This document shows positions 20,819 through 53,994 of a stretch of 64,000 nt of DNA, in pieces. The stretch lies in contig CALLML010000048.1 of assembly GCA_938005705.1 (NCBI GenBank), positions 2,066-66,065 on the forward strand, written 5' to 3'. This stretch comes from an uncultured bacterium (lineage in GTDB: Bacteria > Verrucomicrobiota > Kiritimatiellia > PWTM01). The notes under the pieces are model-generated. The model ran no database searches. It worked only from the letters and a program-made list of their open reading frames with translations, and had not been told where the DNA came from. The translations under genes were made by a program, and so were the position numbers. Position 1 is the first letter of the stretch, and every line of letters begins with the position of its first letter.

Positions 20819-20864
20819 TTCCAAGCCTTGGAAAACAAGGCCGGTATTTTTCCGGGCCTTGGAC
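20819..20864. repeat. Palindromic repeat array: 2 units of TTCCAAGCCTTGGAA, 31 bp apart
   Basis: TTCCAAGCCTTGGAA at 20819-20833 and degenerate TTCCGGGCCTTGGAC at 20850-20864. Lies between convergent gene ends. Confidence 0.7.
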
Positions 20865-20961
20865 AATGAATGAATCAATCGGATGTACACCCTGCCATCC
20901 GGCCACCGGCGTTGGTTTACCTTTTCCCAACTCTGTCCGATGGTCGTAAAAGGCTTAAGGT

Positions 20962-23499
20962 TCAAGACACGGTCAGTTCCGCCGCTGGCAAACCGGCGCT
21001 CGGAATTTGAATCGTGCGGATCGGTTTCGATGAGCATGGACTCCGATCCGACGAAGGCGAGGCTTCCCGTGCGCCCTCCAGGATTGCGAGGGCATTTTCC
21101 CACCGACTCGCGCGGGCTTTGGCGAGTGCGCGTTCCCGCAAATAGGCGCGCAAGGCAGCATCATCCCGCAATTGACGCATGGCCGCGGCGAAGCCGGCGA
21201 CGGAAGCATCGGTCACGATGCCCGAACCGTGCGTGCCCACGATTTCCGGCGGGCCACCGCGATTTGCGACGATCGCCGGCAGACCGGAGGCGTGGGCCTC
21301 CAGCACGACATTGCCGAAGGTGTCAGTCAGGCTAGGGAACACGAACACGTCCGCGCTCGCATAGGCCGCCGCCAGCGCGTCTCCGTGTAACGCGCCAGTG
21401 AAAGCGATGTCCGATCGCCGATACGCCTGGCGCAAATCGGGCAGTGCCGGGCCGTCGCCAACGATGAGGAGATTGGTGCGGGCGTCGCCGTGTTCTCCGG
21501 TCAATCGAAGGTACGCCTCGAGCAGGGTACGGACGTTTTTTTCTTCCGAGACACGCCCGACATAGAGGAACTTCAGCTCGCCGTGGAGTCCCCACCGCGC
21601 CCAAAAATCCGGGTTGCGGCGGTCCGGCCGAAAACGCCGCGTGTCGATGCCGCGGGGCAGGACGGCCAGTCGGGACCGGTCGAATCCGGCATGCGCCAAT
21701 TGTTCGAGATAGAAGCGGCTGGGGGCATACACCGCCTCCATGTTGCCGTAGAACCAACGCATGTACCGCCAGCCCAATTCCTCCATAATATCGTCATCCG
21801 TCCATTGCTTGATATATCGGGGAAAATCGGTGTGATAGAGCCCGCGCACGTGCAACCCCAACAGACGAGCCGCGAGCCGGCCGGCCAGGCCCACGGGACC
21901 CGGCGTCGAGAGAATCAACTCATCGAACTGCTGCTCCTCAATCCAGGCGATCATCTCGAGCACCGGCGGTACAGTGAGCGTCTGGTCCTTGTATTCAGGA
22001 AACACAAACGTGCCGACCGGCTCGAAGTTCTTCAGCGGGAACGAGGCCTTCGCGGTCTCCGGGCGGCAGGTAACCACCGTAATGGGCCGGCCCCGTTCTG
22101 CCGCCAGCCCGGCCAGCGTGCGGATGGTGTGCGCCACCCCGTTGATGTCATCGAAGGTGTCGGTCAGCCACGCGCGTTTTGGTCCGGCGGGCCGGGGTTC
22201 ACGCGCCGAGGGCCAGCGTGCTTCCACCCGTCTCAACAGCGCCACGTCCTTGTGTTGCGCGGCGAAGGCCGTGACGTAGGGGGCCACGCCCAGCAAAATC
22301 GGTCCCAGGGCCGATAACGACTGAATGGCCTCGACGATTCGTCCGGATCGGATGTGCGCAACCGTCTGTTGTGCGAACGTGAGCGTGAGTTGATGCGCAA
22401 TACGGCAGGCCGCCTCAAACCGCTGCCGCTCGGCGTCGGGCGGAGGCGCCGGATGGTGGCCTTCCGCCTCCGTTTGGCGGCGCCGCTCCACCAGCGCGGT
22501 AAATTCATCCAGGATGGCCCGTTCGATATCGTTGAGGCGACGCCGCCGGAAATGGCGCACGACCTTTTCGATCGGGCGCGTCACCGCCGAACCGACCGCC
22601 GAGCGCCGGCCTCGCGAGGAGGACTTTTCAGGATGTGCGCCGGAGAGACGCCGAAGAATCGCGCCGATGATGGAAGGGTCCGAGCGCCCGCCGCGCAGAA
22701 ACCGGCTGTGATAGTAGCTGTAGGCGATGTGATAGAGGCTGTGTGCCAGCCGCAGGCTCGACCCGTCGCGGCCGCCCGGCTCATGGCACCCTTCGCGCAA
22801 ATGTGAAAGGAACTCGTGAACTGATTCCGCACGGGGCGTCACGGTATGCGCGCCACAGGCGTAAAGCCCGCTGTGATCGTCGCTACCGCCGGTAAGCCGC
22901 TTGATCCACGGCTTGGGGCCGGCCGGCGCAATGCCGTGACGGTCCGCCAGAGCCGCGAGGTCCTCCAGCGTCAGCGCACGGAAGATCGCATTGGCCAGAC
23001 GACACGCCCGGGGATCGCGCGAGCCGTTGATGCCTTCGAACCGATTGAACATCAACAGCAGCTTTTCAAAGTGCTCGATTGTCAGTTTGTCATTCACCCG
23101 AAACAGCGGATGGGCGATAGCATGAGCAATGTTTTCGCGCAGGAGCAGGTTGCGCAAATCGTAAATGTTTTCGCGCGCGCGCTGCAGAGCGTCGAATTGC
23201 GCCTCCGTCACGCCCCAGACGAGGCAATGTATCTTGCACCCGTCCTCGGGAAAGTAGGTCGTCAGCTCGCTAGACAGGAACACGCCCGGCAGATCGGCGA
23301 TTTCCAACGCACCGCTCAGGCTGTTGTGGTCGGTGATGGTGACAAAATCCATGCCGCGCTCCCGGCACACGCCGTAGAGCTCGCGCGGTTCAACGAAGCT
23401 TTCGGGCGCGCCGATCCGACGCAGAAACCACTCGCTCGGGCGATCCGAGTGTTTGCTGTGAACATGCAAATCCGCGCGCGACACACGCTCCGCAATCAT
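20962..23499 (-). CDS. Fusion protein: N-terminal PHP-domain metal-dependent phosphoesterase + C-terminal family-4 glycosyltransferase (GT4)
   Basis: PHP motifs: DLHVHSKHSD, FVTITDHNS, GGSDDH. GT4 C-terminus: EEKN...LLIVGDGP...VFVFPSLTDTFGNVVLEAHASGLPAIV (E-x7-E). GGAGG RBS. Confidence 0.75.
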   Translation of the reverse strand: MIAERVSRADLHVHSKHSDRPSEWFLRRIGAPESFVEPRELYGVCRERGMDFVTITDHNSLSGALEIADLPGVFLSSELTTYFPEDGCKIHCLVWGVTEAQFDALQRARENIYDLRNLLLRENIAHAIAHPLFRVNDKLTIEHFEKLLLMFNRFEGINGSRDPRACRLANAIFRALTLEDLAALADRHGIAPAGPKPWIKRLTGGSDDHSGLYACGAHTVTPRAESVHEFLSHLREGCHEPGGRDGSSLRLAHSLYHIAYSYYHSRFLRGGRSDPSIIGAILRRLSGAHPEKSSSRGRRSAVGSAVTRPIEKVVRHFRRRRLNDIERAILDEFTALVERRRQTEAEGHHPAPPPDAERQRFEAACRIAHQLTLTFAQQTVAHIRSGRIVEAIQSLSALGPILLGVAPYVTAFAAQHKDVALLRRVEARWPSAREPRPAGPKRAWLTDTFDDINGVAHTIRTLAGLAAERGRPITVVTCRPETAKASFPLKNFEPVGTFVFPEYKDQTLTVPPVLEMIAWIEEQQFDELILSTPGPVGLAGRLAARLLGLHVRGLYHTDFPRYIKQWTDDDIMEELGWRYMRWFYGNMEAVYAPSRFYLEQLAHAGFDRSRLAVLPRGIDTRRFRPDRRNPDFWARWGLHGELKFLYVGRVSEEKNVRTLLEAYLRLTGEHGDARTNLLIVGDGPALPDLRQAYRRSDIAFTGALHGDALAAAYASADVFVFPSLTDTFGNVVLEAHASGLPAIVANRGGPPEIVGTHGSGIVTDASVAGFAAAMRQLRDDAALRAYLRERALAKARASRWENALAILEGAREASPSSDRSPCSSKPIRTIQIPSAGLPAAELTVS

Positions 23500-23659
23500 C
23501 CTACGCCTCCTGCCTTCCGATCGGGCTTGTTCACTCGCAGGGTCAATATGCCGCCGCGGCTTTAGAATCCGGTGAGCCGTCGGTTAGAAATGCGTGCGGG
23601 AAATGAAAGGGGGGGCGCATTATTCGGAGGCGGTCGCCTTCGCCGCGCACTCCGGCGCG

Positions 23660-52940: not shown

Positions 52941-53221
52941 GCTTGTTCTTTTTCAAAAGCGGCCGTGCCGCACTTGCGGCTCAGCGCGGATTTGACGTGG
53001 ACGTCGGGAATCTGCCCGAGCCGTCCGGTCAATTCACCGATTTCGTCTGTAGATACGTCCACAATTAACGCGATGACACCACAATGACCTTTTTCAAACG
53101 GTACGCCTGTGCGGGCTACGATCCGCTCGCCGAACTCCGAAAGAATAGCGTTGACCTTGGACGCTGTCTGTCGCCGGTTCTCGATAATAATCCCGACAAA
53201 TCCGATGCGTCTTTCCGTCAT
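52937..53221 (-). CDS. TM1266-family putative iron-only hydrogenase system regulator (ACT/NikR-like small protein)
   Basis: 94-aa protein (VGIIIENRRQTASKVNAILSEFGERIVARTGVPF...GVIALIVD). ATGA-coupled directly upstream of hydG, as in known hyd loci. Confidence 0.7.
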   Translation of the reverse strand: MTERRIGFVGIIIENRRQTASKVNAILSEFGERIVARTGVPFEKGHCGVIALIVDVSTDEIGELTGRLGQIPDVHVKSALSRKCGTAAFEKEQA

Positions 53222-53915
53222 GAGTGTTGTTCTCGTAAAACAAAAAAAACCGGATGCGCCACTCCCGCGACGCCCCGGCCCCTTTGATCCGCTATGGGCT
53301 TTTCGCCACCCTCAGGTTCAGATCCTTCGATCCTTGCCGCAGGAAGCTTTTACAACCTACCGTATTAACGGTGAAAATCAAGACCTGTGTCGTGCGATCC
53401 TACCATACCGGCCCGGATCCCGCCTCCGCCCTCTCATGTTCCGTCTCCATCCAGAGGCCTTGCGGGAGCCGGAAAGCCCGAACAAGAATACAACGGCCTT
53501 GGGTCATGCCGTATTGATCGCCGATTATCATAATCCACAGGCATGTGCCCGGCCAGAATGCTCGAGTCCTCGTCGTCGAATTCCGTATTCGGCAAGGGAT
53601 AGGCTTCCGTCTCGCAATAGAAAAATCTTGTTCGACGAAGAAAGATTTGACCATGGATGACGCGGATAAACTCGGATGGGGAAAACTACAAATAACGCGA
53701 ATTGCGCGCATGGAAGACGGGAATGTGGACATCCCCATCCGTGTCCATCCGCGAAATCCGCAGTTGAACTCGGTCGGGGGGTCTGGCCGAAGAACGCAAA
53801 CCGGAAGATCAGTCGAACCATCGGTCGCACGGTACGGCGCGAAGCGCGCCGCCCGTGAACCGTGACGTTGGGGGAGGCCGAGAGCAGAGGGAAAAACGGA
53901 GCGGAAGCAACGGAT

Positions 53916-53994
53916 TTCCAAGCCTTGGAAAAGGGCGCGAAGAGTTTTTCCAAACCTTGCAAAAACAGGCGCCGGATCTTTCCAAGGCTTGGAA
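53916..53994. repeat. Palindromic repeat array: 3 units (TTCCAAGCCTTGGAA, TTCCAAACCTTGCAA, TTCCAAGGCTTGGAA) at exact 32-bp phase
   Basis: Units at 53916-53930, 53948-53962 and 53980-53994. The third is the centre-flipped (reverse-complement) form. Sits within a ~1.07-kb stretch lacking convincing CDS. Confidence 0.8.

What the first reader, a model, noticed from the sequence alone, without database searches (positions are those of the whole stretch)
20819..53994. Arrays of the 15-bp palindrome TTCCAAGCCTTGGAA phased every ~32 bp at three separate loci
Perfect or near-perfect TTCCAAG-C/G-CTTGGAA units recur at 20819/20850, at 28521/28549/28583/28614/28647, and at 53916/53948/53980. The centre-to-centre spacing is constant at 30-33 bp, about three helical turns. 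The inter-unit spacers are partly conserved (A-C/A-A/G-GGCGCC...). This rules out CRISPR and points to a tandem mosaic like enterobacterial BIMEs. One array abuts the start of the GH5-like gene. One sits in a 1-kb noncoding stretch upstream of the hyd regulator operon. One lies between convergent gene ends, next to repeat copy C. The same-face phasing suggests cooperative binding of a dimeric protein, such as a nucleoid-associated or global regulator, or gyrase/IHF-type structural sites.
Basis: seen in the sequence. Interest (0 to 1): 0.6.

Follow-up and report, generated by a model that had tools for sequence, protein, structure and literature searches.

The report
Genome-wide phased palindromic repeat arrays
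The three arrays are local copies of an apparently undescribed, genome-wide family of short palindromes repeated exactly every 31-32 bp in a clade of Kiritimatiellales-like (PVC) bacteria; the family resembles REP/BIME repeats, fills intergenic gaps, grows unit by unit and even sits in frame inside enzyme genes, so it is not a switch for the neighbouring genes.

Summary
Ten units of TTCCAAG-S-CTTGGAA lie in three arrays, at 20819-20864, 28518-28660 and 53916-53994. The period is 32 bp (31 bp once). About 0.05 matches are expected by chance.

The arrays are not specific to these loci. The same palindrome at the same phase occurs in more than 109 loci of about 10 PVC-group MAGs, labelled Kiritimatiellae, Lentisphaerae or Verrucomicrobia. 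In the sampled loci there is one array per 3-20 kb.

- **Spacing:** it is almost only 31 or 32 bp, with a mean of 31.5, which is three helical turns.
- **Spacers:** they keep their length but not their sequence.
- **Type of conservation:** variation in the palindrome is one-sided, not compensatory. Conservation is therefore of DNA sequence, not of RNA structure.
- **Position:** arrays occur in divergent, tandem and convergent intergenic regions in the background proportions. About 10-15% lie inside ORFs.
- **Inside genes:** in ThiD, CinA and an aminotransferase the units were made in place with no or almost no change in length (CinA has one 3-aa gap). In an RluA-family synthase, orthologues show 0, 1, 2 and 4 units inserted in frame.

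My best reading is a REP/BIME-like dispersed repeat. It has no tag, is fully symmetric, and is probably recognised by a dimeric protein and propagated in helical phase. The reading as gene-specific regulation does not. I rate it a new variant of a known kind, interest about 0.6.

The parts
20819..20864 (.). Array A: 2 units (20819-20833 perfect; 20850-20864 TTCCGGGCCTTGGAC, 3 mismatches), period 31 bp
   Evidence: It lies in the 502-bp gap between the convergent genes 17880-20459 (+) and 20962-23499 (-, GT4). It is 70 bp downstream of a MITE-like repeat copy.
28518..28660 (.). Array B: 5 units at 28518, 28550, 28582, 28614 and 28646 (3, 3, 0, 0 and 0 mismatches), period exactly 32 bp
   Evidence: (TRF period 32). 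It lies between RmuC (27030-~28460, -) and the DUF5060 ('GH5-like') gene, whose ATG is at 28674 by the public gene call. Orthologous arrays stand upstream of the same gene in L012 (3 units), L112/L113 (2 units) and L114 (2 decayed units).
28486..28500 (.). Possible decayed sixth unit of array B (TTCGAAACCCGGAAA, 5 mismatches), in phase 32 bp before the unit at 28518
   Evidence: This is a weak match. It is listed only because it is in exact phase with the array.
53916..53994 (.). Array C: 3 units at 53916 (perfect), 53948 (TTCCAAACCTTGCAA, 2 mismatches) and 53980 (perfect, centre G), period 32 bp
   Evidence: It lies in the 1.35-kb gap between the radical-SAM/BATS gene 51438-52940 (-) and the phosphoribosyltransferase gene 54293-54904 (-).

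Best explanation
The three arrays belong to a lineage-specific, genome-wide family of dispersed repeats of the REP/BIME kind.

**The unit.** Each unit is a fully symmetric 7-1-7 palindrome, (T)TTTCCAAG-S-CTTGGAAA(A). Units are repeated head to tail every 31 or 32 bp, which is three helical turns. The roughly 12-nt GC-rich core of each spacer is free to vary.

**Proposed mechanism.** A dimeric sequence-specific DNA-binding protein reads the two half-sites TTCCA and TGGAA one helical turn apart. Neighbouring dimers then sit on the same face of the helix. Arrays are seeded where the local sequence already resembles a unit. They then gain or lose whole units in phase, so the protein, or an enzyme that works with it, acts as a ruler.

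**What selection does.** The process is largely selfish or neutral. Selection only filters where arrays are tolerated: mostly intergenic gaps and, in frame, surface loops of proteins. The unit has no stop codon in any of the six frames. On this reading the arrays in this window are ordinary family members rather than dedicated regulators of the neighbouring genes.

**Shown:** the family, its phase, the free spacers, conservation at the level of DNA sequence, the lack of any preference for gene class or promoter side, formation in place and in-frame growth inside genes, and gain or loss of units between orthologues.

**Inferred:** that a protein binds the units, that it is dimeric and cooperative, and how new units are written.
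For: - They come from about 10 PVC-group MAGs of independent projects.
- **Phase.** Across 889 kb there are 527 units. Successive spacings are 31 bp (131 times) or 32 bp (150 times) and almost nothing else. The preferred value differs by genome.
- **Spacers.** They show no dyad symmetry beyond what composition gives, and they are not copies of one another. Spacers within one array are no more alike than spacers of different arrays (0.383 against 0.384).
- **Sequence, not structure.** There are 202 one-sided disruptions of the palindrome against 4 compensated pairs. G:U-type changes on the sense strand number 47, against 58 A:C-type changes.
- **Position.** Arrays fall in tandem, convergent and divergent gaps in a ratio of 81:26:20. 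The background ratio is 301:69:80. Many arrays start 1-10 nt after a stop codon. Genes flanked by arrays on both sides are unrelated housekeeping genes, and none is a transposase.
- **Orthologous arrays.** They keep units and phase but not spacers, and they differ by whole units: 5 against 3, 4 against 3, 4 against 5, and 1 against 4.
- **Units made in place inside genes.** In ThiD, 'TPNFPELGKLLGRNFQGLEE' aligns without a gap to 'TPNLPEAEVLLGRPIRTEEE' of PDB 7r8y. In CinA the native PRLG is kept but is encoded CCA AGG CTT GGA. An aminotransferase carries two units with no indel.
- **In-frame growth inside a gene.** In an RluA-family synthase the same site shows a proto-site, then 1 unit, then 2 units (+33 nt), then 4 perfect units (+63 nt = 31+32) across orthologues.
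- **Agreement with published REP behaviour.** REPs are reported close to 3' ends of genes, with intragenic copies that are most numerous in the PVC member Opitutus terrae, and with dimers whose spacers keep their length but differ in sequence (PMC3733652).
Against: - No cognate protein or transposase was identified, and no RAYT-type gene was looked for genome-wide.
- The unit lacks the GTAG or CGTC tag that defines most REP superfamilies. It is fully symmetric, unlike REPs.
- The source of the new spacers that come with added units is unknown. They are not duplicates of neighbouring spacers, and no donor copies were found in the sampled loci.
- An array upstream of the DUF5060 ('GH5-like') gene is kept in at least 4 species. 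Units are conserved where spacers are not. Both facts would also fit purifying selection for a host function.
- The loci were chosen because they contain an array, so the densities are biased upward. My gene calls are crude: a codon log-odds model that separates sense from antisense poorly.
Confidence: 0.5

Rival explanations
1. The arrays are host-beneficial binding sites. A nucleoid-associated protein or global regulator oligomerises cooperatively on phased operators (compare NrdR tandem boxes, Lrp, Fis or Noc). Each array is kept by purifying selection for chromosome organisation or transcription control.
For: - The unit has operator-like 7-1-7 architecture with half-sites 10 bp apart.
- The mean period is 31.5 bp.
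- Units and phase are conserved while spacers diverge at orthologous sites.
- An array is kept upstream of the DUF5060 ('GH5-like') gene in at least 4 species.
- Rare codons are used to write units inside CinA and ThiD.
Against: - Arrays show no preference for promoter-containing gaps.
- Neighbouring genes share no function.
- Density differs several-fold between related genomes: 1 per 21 kb in the window against about 1 per 3-4 kb in the SCQF and CAISWQ loci.
- A 4-unit array has been inserted in the catalytic domain of an RluA-family enzyme. That is hard to explain by selection at that one site.
Confidence: 0.25
2. The palindrome is an uptake or recombination signal that spreads by molecular drive, as USS and DUS do. 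DNA fragments carrying phased palindromes are preferentially taken up or recombined, so units accumulate in place by point mutation.
For: - Units arise in place inside conserved coding sequence without indels.
- The motif is clade-specific and has a high copy number.
- The motif has A/T-rich flanks.
Against: - Known uptake sequences are asymmetric 9-12-mers at about 1 per kb and do not form phased arrays (my own knowledge of USS and DUS).
- Drive by point mutation does not explain insertion of whole units with new spacers.
- Competence in this clade is unknown.
Confidence: 0.07
3. The arrays act as RNA. They would be hairpin arrays in 3' UTRs, intercistronic regions or 5' leaders that stabilise or process mRNA, as proposed for many REPs.
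For: - Many arrays lie 1-10 nt after stop codons or fill intercistronic gaps.
- Each unit can fold into a hairpin of 6-8 bp. As DNA this is -5.2 kcal/mol, z = -2.6. Array B folded as RNA gives z = -2.4.
Against: - There are 4 compensated pairs against 202 one-sided disruptions, and no G:U bias on the sense strand.
- The helical-phase spacing has no obvious meaning for RNA.
- Rfam gives no match.
Confidence: 0.08
4. The arrays are made by integrase-type acquisition, as a miniature analogue of CRISPR adaptation. An enzyme would duplicate a palindromic repeat and insert a short captured fragment of fixed length next to it.
For: - Added units come with unrelated spacers of fixed length.
- The period behaves like a strict ruler.
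Against: - The units are 15-19 bp and the spacers 12-17 nt, far below CRISPR dimensions.
- There appear to be many small arrays per genome rather than a few loci.
- Some units form in place without any insertion.
- No cas genes were seen among the neighbours I scanned.
- Viral contigs gave 0 hits to the two-unit pattern. The spacers themselves were not searched against viral collections.
Confidence: 0.05
5. The arrays are promoters. The right half of one unit (TTGGAA) would serve as a -35-like element and the left half of the next unit as a -10-like element 16-17 nt away, for an alternative sigma factor.
For: - The gap between hexamers is 16-17 nt.
- Several arrays end 3-14 nt before start codons.
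Against: - Arrays are equally common between convergent genes and also occur inside genes.
- They are symmetric, so any promoter would fire in both directions.
- The scan found no sigma-70-like match in arrays A or B.
- Arrays of 4-6 units would be redundant as promoters.
Confidence: 0.03

Closest known systems
REP / BIME elements (repetitive extragenic palindromes; GTAG- and CGTC-tagged superfamilies, SMAG, Pseudomonas REPs)
   Same: - Both are short palindromes in high copy number spread over the genome, mostly intergenic.
- Both are often within a few bp of the 3' ends of genes.
- Both occur as singles, pairs and clusters.
- Some REP dimers have spacers that keep their length but differ in sequence.
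- Occasional copies lie inside genes in frame. These are most numerous in the PVC member Opitutus terrae (PMC3733652).
   Different: - This unit has no GTAG or CGTC tag.
- It is perfectly symmetric, so there is no head or tail and no head-to-head or tail-to-tail dimers.
- Units are direct repeats on a strict 31/32-bp lattice with up to 6 copies, rather than alternating orientations with defined linker motifs.
- Some units are written in place inside conserved coding sequence without an indel.
- No RAYT gene has been linked to the family; this was not tested.
Rickettsia palindromic elements (RPE)
   Same: Both are palindromic repeats found in frame inside protein-coding genes, including pseudouridine synthase genes, and tolerated as extra peptide loops (PMC3733652; compare).
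   Different: - RPE-1 elements are much longer single insertions. By my own recollection they are about 100-150 bp.
- They do not form a phased lattice.
- They belong to a different clade, the Alphaproteobacteria.
Tandem operator arrays of oligomerising regulators (NrdR boxes 31-32 bp apart; Lrp/AsnC 15-bp palindromes phased by about 3 turns; Fur-family 7-1-7 boxes)
   Same: Both have odd-length palindromes with half-sites one turn apart. Both have centre-to-centre distances of a whole number of helical turns, so that dimers sit on one face. This comparison rests on my own knowledge of these systems. It was not tested here.
   Different: - Those sites stand at defined positions in the promoters of a regulon, tens per genome.
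- Here the copy number appears to be far higher, there is no preference for promoter side or gene class, and arrays occur inside ORFs.
DNA uptake sequences (USS/DUS) and HIP1-type iterated palindromes
   Same: All are clade-specific short motifs that also accumulate inside coding sequence by substitution, reshaping codon choice (compare).
   Different: - USS and DUS are asymmetric and not phased.
- HIP1 is an 8-mer without arrays.
- None of them adds whole units with spacers.
CRISPR arrays
   Same: Both have regularly spaced palindromic repeats with spacers that are unrelated in sequence and constant in length.
   Different: - The period here is 31-32 bp, against about 60-70 bp in CRISPR.
- Repeats are 15-19 bp and spacers 12-17 nt.
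- There are many small arrays of 2-6 units.
- Arrays also occur inside genes.
- No cas genes were seen.

Membership tests
REP/BIME (as defined in PMC3733652) | Small (20-40 bp) palindromic repeat in high copy number, spread over the genome | tested here: met
   The palindrome core is 15 bp, or 19-21 bp with its T/A flanks. Loci carry one array per 3-20 kb.
REP/BIME (as defined in PMC3733652) | Unpaired GTAG or CGTC tag at one end, which gives the unit an orientation | tested here: not met
   Position frequencies around 281 unit pairs show only T-runs and A-runs flanking the palindrome. The unit is symmetric and its centre base is G or C at random within arrays.
REP/BIME (as defined in PMC3733652) | Mostly extragenic, near the 3' ends of genes, between unidirectional and convergent ORFs | tested here: met
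   At least 127 of 183 classified arrays lie in the roughly 13% of sequence that is intergenic. The median distance to a facing stop codon is 33 bp, and a quarter lie within 10 bp. Divergent gaps are not strongly avoided: 20 arrays, against 26 in convergent gaps.
REP/BIME (as defined in PMC3733652) | Association with a RAYT (Y1 transposase) gene flanked by the repeats | not tested
Ten genes flanked by arrays on both sides were all housekeeping genes, but whole genomes were not searched.
BIME mosaic (E. coli type) | REPs in alternating orientation separated by a small set of conserved linker motifs | tested here: not met
   Spacers are not conserved and are no more alike within arrays than between arrays. 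The units have no orientation.
CRISPR | Repeats of about 23-55 bp with spacers of about 21-72 bp, at few loci, with a leader and cas genes | tested here: not met
   The period is 31-32 bp in total. Arrays have 1-6 units and occur many per genome and inside ORFs. No cas domains were found in the neighbours I scanned.
Structured RNA element / known RNA family | Base pairs maintained by compensatory change; a match to an Rfam model | tested here: not met
   There are 4 compensated pairs against 202 one-sided disruptions and no wobble bias on the sense strand. Rfam gave no hit at gathering threshold on the window, nor at E<=1 on 20440-20980.
Gene-specific operator array (NrdR/Lrp/Fur-like regulon site) | Sites at defined promoter positions of a functionally coherent set of genes | tested here: not met
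   The proportions of tandem, convergent and divergent gaps equal the background. Neighbouring genes are unrelated. Some arrays lie in ORFs.
Gene-specific operator array (NrdR/Lrp/Fur-like regulon site) | Palindromic half-sites one turn apart, and boxes spaced by a whole number of turns | tested here: met
   The motif is TTCCA-N5-TGGAA. Spacings are 31 bp (131 times) and 32 bp (150 times), with a mean of 31.5.
Protein-bound DNA site (any) | A protein binds the unit specifically | not testable with these tools
   This needs DAP-seq, pull-down or EMSA.
Uptake signal sequence (USS/DUS) | Asymmetric 9-12-mer at about 1 per kb in a naturally competent lineage, with biased uptake | tested here: not met
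   The motif is symmetric, arrayed and about 3-20 times less dense. Competence and uptake bias cannot be tested here.

The most novel reading that the evidence does not exclude
A protein-guided 'ruler' system writes new copies of a 7-1-7 palindrome exactly three helical turns from an existing copy. It would do so either by converting the local sequence or by inserting a unit together with a novel spacer. It would operate genome-wide, including inside essential enzyme genes. This would be a mode of repeat propagation distinct from RAYT/REP transposition, replication slippage and CRISPR adaptation.
Probability: 0.2. Interest if true: 0.85.

Novelty: new variant of a known kind. Interest (0 to 1): 0.6.

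Why it matters
If the reading holds, a clade of polysaccharide-degrading PVC bacteria known mainly from MAGs carries a dispersed repeat with an unusually clean architecture. The unit is a perfect palindrome, the lattice is a strict three-turn one, and the spacers are free.

The family's history can be read directly from orthologues: a proto-site, then 1, 2 and 4 units inside one enzyme gene. 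This makes an old question directly testable, namely how REP-like repeats arise and spread, and whether they are selfish, structural or both.

There are also practical consequences.
- The unit has no stop codon in any frame, so gene callers run ORFs through the arrays. Public calls for RmuC beside array B differ by 36 aa.
- Arrays upstream of glycoside-hydrolase or hydrogenase-maturation genes should not be read as specific operators.

Tried and rejected
- **Rfam.** I ran Rfam on the window at gathering threshold and on the gap around array A at E<=1. Neither gave a hit. The window has no tRNA.
- **Literature.** No paper contains the 15-mer or its 11-mer core in a relevant setting. No paper on Kiritimatiellia describes such repeats.
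- **Viral contigs.** The two-unit pattern gave 0 hits.
- **Hidden second palindrome in the spacers.** The position matrix for the 31-bp class looked symmetric. Per-sequence dyad symmetry does not exceed the composition null, so I rejected this.
- **Growth by tandem duplication or target-site duplication.** Spacers within an array are no more alike than spacers of different arrays, so I rejected this. In the window, the spacer between B3 and B4 resembles the sequence after B5, so occasional duplication of two units is possible.
- **Donor copies of inserted spacers.** None was found among the sampled loci, but only a fraction of each genome was available.
- **Strain-level polymorphism of array B.** The two public contigs that carry the same MnmA protein match the window at 100% and 99.98% identity without gaps.
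- **Sigma-70 promoter and terminator scans.** Nothing exceeds chance in arrays A and B. One consensus-level promoter match lies next to array C.
- **First gene caller.** My first version used GC3 only and missed RmuC. I replaced it with a codon log-odds model. That model separates sense from antisense poorly, so claims of arrays inside genes rest on the cases backed by homology.
- **10.5-bp AT/GC periodicity in the unit.** I considered this and dropped it. The alternation inside the palindrome is about 5 bp.

Full report
**1. Observation**

The pattern TTCCAAGSCTTGGAA occurs 7 times in the window at up to 2 mismatches, where 0.05 are expected. It occurs 12 times at up to 3 mismatches, where 1.3 are expected. 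Ten of these hits form three arrays:
- Array A: 20819 and 20850.
- Array B: 28518, 28550, 28582, 28614 and 28646.
- Array C: 53916, 53948 and 53980.

The period is exactly 32 bp, except 31 bp in array A. Tandem Repeats Finder reports a period of 32 for the core of array B. A relaxed search for phased pairs finds only these arrays, plus a decayed sixth unit of array B at 28486. Shuffled sequence gives none. Otherwise the description is accurate.

**2. Context in the window**

The window has 61% G+C.
- **Array A** lies in a 502-bp gap between convergent gene ends: 17880-20459 (+, no Pfam match) and a GT4 glycosyltransferase at 20962-23499 (-).
- **Array B** lies between divergent genes. One is RmuC (27030 to about 28460, -). 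Its ATG in the public gene call is at 28674, 13 nt after the last unit.
- **Array C** lies in a 1.35-kb stretch with no confident ORF. This stretch is upstream of a radical-SAM/BATS (HydG-like) gene at 51438-52940 (-) and downstream of a phosphoribosyltransferase gene at 54293-54904 (-).

Rfam gives no match and the window has no tRNA. The window matches two public contigs at 99.98% and 100% identity: one from ENA assembly ERZ6864144 and one from a Logan assembly of ERR9287890.

**3. A genome-wide family, not three special loci**

I scanned one genome per GTDB species for two perfect units 14-20 nt apart. All came from about ten MAGs of independent projects. These are labelled Kiritimatiellae, Kiritimatiellales, Lentisphaerae, Verrucomicrobia or 'uncultured bacterium', that is, the PVC group. 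The window's nearest relative among them is CALGXT01, at 71-78% nucleotide identity.

Across these loci and the window (889 kb) there are 527 units at up to 3 mismatches, of which 302 are perfect. The distance between successive units is 31 bp (131 times) or 32 bp (150 times) and almost never anything else. The mean is 31.5 bp, or three turns of B-DNA. Genomes differ in their preference:
- SCQF: 33 of 36 intervals are 32 bp.
- The window: 6 of 7 are 32 bp.
- CAISWQ: 99 are 31 bp and 71 are 32 bp.

Arrays hold 1-6 units. The centre base is G or C with no consistent orientation within an array, so the unit is truly symmetric.

In the sampled loci arrays recur every 1-3 kb in SCQF and CAISWQ. In the window there is one per 21 kb. 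The loci were selected for carrying at least one array, so their densities are upper estimates.

**4. Anatomy of the repeat**

The palindrome extends into T-runs on the left and A-runs on the right, as (T)TTTCCAAG-S-CTTGGAAA(A). The remaining roughly 12 nt of each spacer are GC-rich but otherwise unconstrained.
- Spacers have no internal dyad symmetry beyond what composition gives.
- They are not copies of one another.
- Spacers of one array are no more alike than spacers of different arrays (0.383 against 0.384).

Simple tandem duplication is not how arrays are built.

The unit has no stop codon in any of the six frames. This can be read directly from the sequence.

**5. DNA sequence is conserved, not RNA structure**

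I examined 345 units whose transcribed strand can be inferred.
- 202 stem positions are disrupted on one side only, against 4 compensated pairs.
- Among the one-sided changes, G:U-compatible changes on the sense strand (47) are no more common than A:C changes (58).
- The outer TTCC/GGAA positions are 96-100% conserved. Positions 7 and 9 are conserved in about 76-94% of units.

The unit can fold into a hairpin (-5.2 kcal/mol as DNA). Array B as RNA folds only modestly better than shuffles (z = -2.4). This pattern fits recognition of a DNA sequence by a protein. The half-sites TTCCA and TGGAA have centres 10 bp apart. The pattern does not fit selection for a hairpin.

**6. Position relative to genes**

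I called genes with a codon log-odds model trained on long ORFs. Of 183 arrays that could be classified:
- 81 lie between co-directional genes, 26 between convergent genes and 20 between divergent genes. The background counts of such gaps are 301, 69 and 80.
- 23 overlap the predicted 5' edge of an ORF. These are mostly likely to be miscalled starts.
- 4 overlap a 3' edge.
- 29 lie deep inside ORFs.

Intergenic DNA makes up about 13% of the sequence but holds about 70% of the arrays. Arrays sit close to stop codons: the median distance is 33 bp and a quarter lie within 10 bp. Several fill the whole gap between a stop codon and the next ATG. Ten genes flanked by arrays on both sides are unrelated. 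They are a TolC-like OEP, a DHH protein, a Wzy_C protein, DJ-1, a SIS-CBS protein, an MFS transporter, an FAD oxidoreductase, a sulfatase, a protein with a weak squalene-hopene-cyclase-domain match and one with no Pfam match. None is a transposase.

This is the distribution described for REPs, not that of a regulon (PMC3733652).

**7. Behaviour over evolutionary time**

At orthologous intergenic sites the units and the phase persist, but the spacers are rewritten and the number of units changes by whole units:
- Window array B has 5 units, L012 has 3, L112 and L113 have 2, and L114 has 2 decayed units. All stand upstream of the same DUF5060 ('GH5-like') gene.
- L053 has 4 units and L055 has 3.
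- L031 has 4 units and L075 has 5.
- L065 has 1 unit and L092 has 4.
- A 4-unit array in L053 stands where L055 has none.
- Orthologous spacers switch between 16 and 17 nt.

**8. Arrays inside genes: two modes**

*(a) Units written in place.*
- In the ThiD domain of two species (L015, L042), two units 32 bp apart encode 'PELGK...FQGLE'. This segment aligns without a gap to ThiD structures: 'TPNFPELGKLLGRNFQGLEE' against 'TPNLPEAEVLLGRPIRTEEE' of 7r8y.
- In CinA (L065, L092), the native 'PRLG' of the family is kept but is encoded CCA AGG CTT GGA. These look like disfavoured codons for a 65% G+C genome, although I did not tabulate codon usage. The only length change is a 3-aa gap.
- An aminotransferase (L094) carries two units with no change of length against the Pfam profile.

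*(b) Whole units inserted in frame.*
- An RluA-family pseudouridine synthase (L102; protein P0001) has about 42 extra residues in its catalytic domain compared with PDB 11wx.
- An alignment of 18 orthologues, with DNA fetched for three of them in addition to L102, shows a series at one site. L116 has a proto-site, TTCCAGAGCCTCGAA, encoding FQSLE. L115 has 1 unit. L117 has 2 units (+33 nt). L102 has 4 perfect units (a further +63 nt = 31+32). The first spacer is orthologous between the 2-unit and 4-unit forms.
- A Ser/Thr kinase-FGE protein carries an array in its interdomain linker (L007). A type I HsdS subunit carries a 5-unit array (L032).

Arrays are therefore seeded on near-cognate sequence and then grow in phase, even where selection for a binding site at that spot is implausible.

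**9. Interpretation**

The evidence fits best a REP/BIME-like dispersed repeat whose unit is the binding site of a dimeric protein. The protein, or an enzyme acting with it, imposes a three-turn ruler when units are added or maintained. Selection mainly decides where arrays are tolerated. I put this at about 0.5.

The main rival, at about 0.25, is that the arrays are host-selected cooperative binding sites for a nucleoid-associated or global regulatory protein. Conservation of units but not of spacers, and persistence upstream of one gene in four species, fit both readings. Three observations favour the first: the lack of any positional or functional preference, the several-fold differences in density between relatives, and the growth inside an enzyme gene.

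I consider four other readings less likely, for the reasons given under the rival explanations:
- an uptake-signal drive;
- RNA hairpins;
- integrase-type acquisition resembling CRISPR adaptation;
- promoters.

**10. Comparison with known systems**

The family shares several features with REPs: copy number, intergenic and 3'-proximal position, clustering, dimer spacers of constant length but variable sequence, and occasional in-frame copies inside genes. Such intragenic copies are documented especially in Opitutus terrae, another PVC bacterium, and in Rickettsia (PMC3733652).

It fails two defining REP/BIME features that I tested:
- It has no GTAG or CGTC tag and hence no orientation.
- It has no conserved linker motifs.

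A RAYT association was not tested. It is not CRISPR, given its dimensions, its many small arrays, its presence in ORFs and the absence of cas genes. It works like phased operator arrays of the NrdR, Lrp or Fur 7-1-7 type in geometry only, and it is not positioned like them.

I found no description of this motif or architecture in the searchable literature.

**11. Verdict**

The feature is real and highly non-random. It is a new variant of a known kind: an untagged, symmetric, strictly phased REP-like family. The structural analogy and the phasing are right. The conserved spacers and the implied gene-specific regulation are not.

Interest is about 0.6. The architecture and the readable history of array growth are unusual, and they make the origin of such repeats testable. 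Both the cognate protein and the mechanism remain inferred.

Noticed in passing
window 1613-1760, 17738-17830 (internally deleted copy), 20602-20750, 61850-61990 (reverse strand): A second, unrelated repeat family of about 140 bp. It has terminal inverted repeats ATTGTCTTTACATGCTCGTT...AACGAGCGTGTCAGGACAAT and an internal GC-rich hairpin, so it looks like a MITE. There are four copies in intergenic DNA.
   Followed up: partly
window 52941-54292: A 1.35-kb stretch with no confident ORF lies between the HydG-like radical-SAM gene and a phosphoribosyltransferase gene. A consensus-level sigma-70 match (TGGACA-17-GATAAT, - strand, 54069-54041) points through array C towards the HydG-like gene. It is unclear what fills the remaining roughly 1 kb.
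   Followed up: no
window 28436-28674; L110 and L111: The unit has no stop codon in any frame, so ORFs run through the arrays. Public gene calls for the same RmuC differ (504 aa against 468 aa), and the longer one starts inside array B. Similar over-extended starts probably explain most of the 23 arrays I classed as lying at the 5' edge of an ORF.
   Followed up: partly
L032 4781-4929: A 5-unit array lies in frame inside a type I restriction-modification specificity subunit (HsdS, Methylase_S). It sits after the first target-recognition domain. The length of this region normally sets the spacing of the bipartite recognition site.
   Followed up: no
loci of SCQF01, CAISWQ01 and the window: The preferred period differs by genome. 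SCQF has 32 bp in 33 of 36 intervals and the window in 6 of 7. CAISWQ has 31 bp 99 times and 32 bp 71 times. In CAISWQ the 16-nt spacers tend towards AAtTTcCGCGgAAAtT-like composition.
   Followed up: partly
two-unit arrays in all loci: The order of centre bases is not random. G-then-C occurs 38 times and C-then-G 21 times. Each of these classes is its own reverse complement, so the difference is not an orientation artefact. The significance is marginal and I have no explanation.
   Followed up: no
L049 3113-5227 (- strand): A single ORF joins a radical-SAM domain to a DapA (DHDPS) domain, with a 2-unit array between them. Either the array bridges two formerly separate genes by removing the stop codon, or this is an assembly or annotation artefact.
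   Followed up: no
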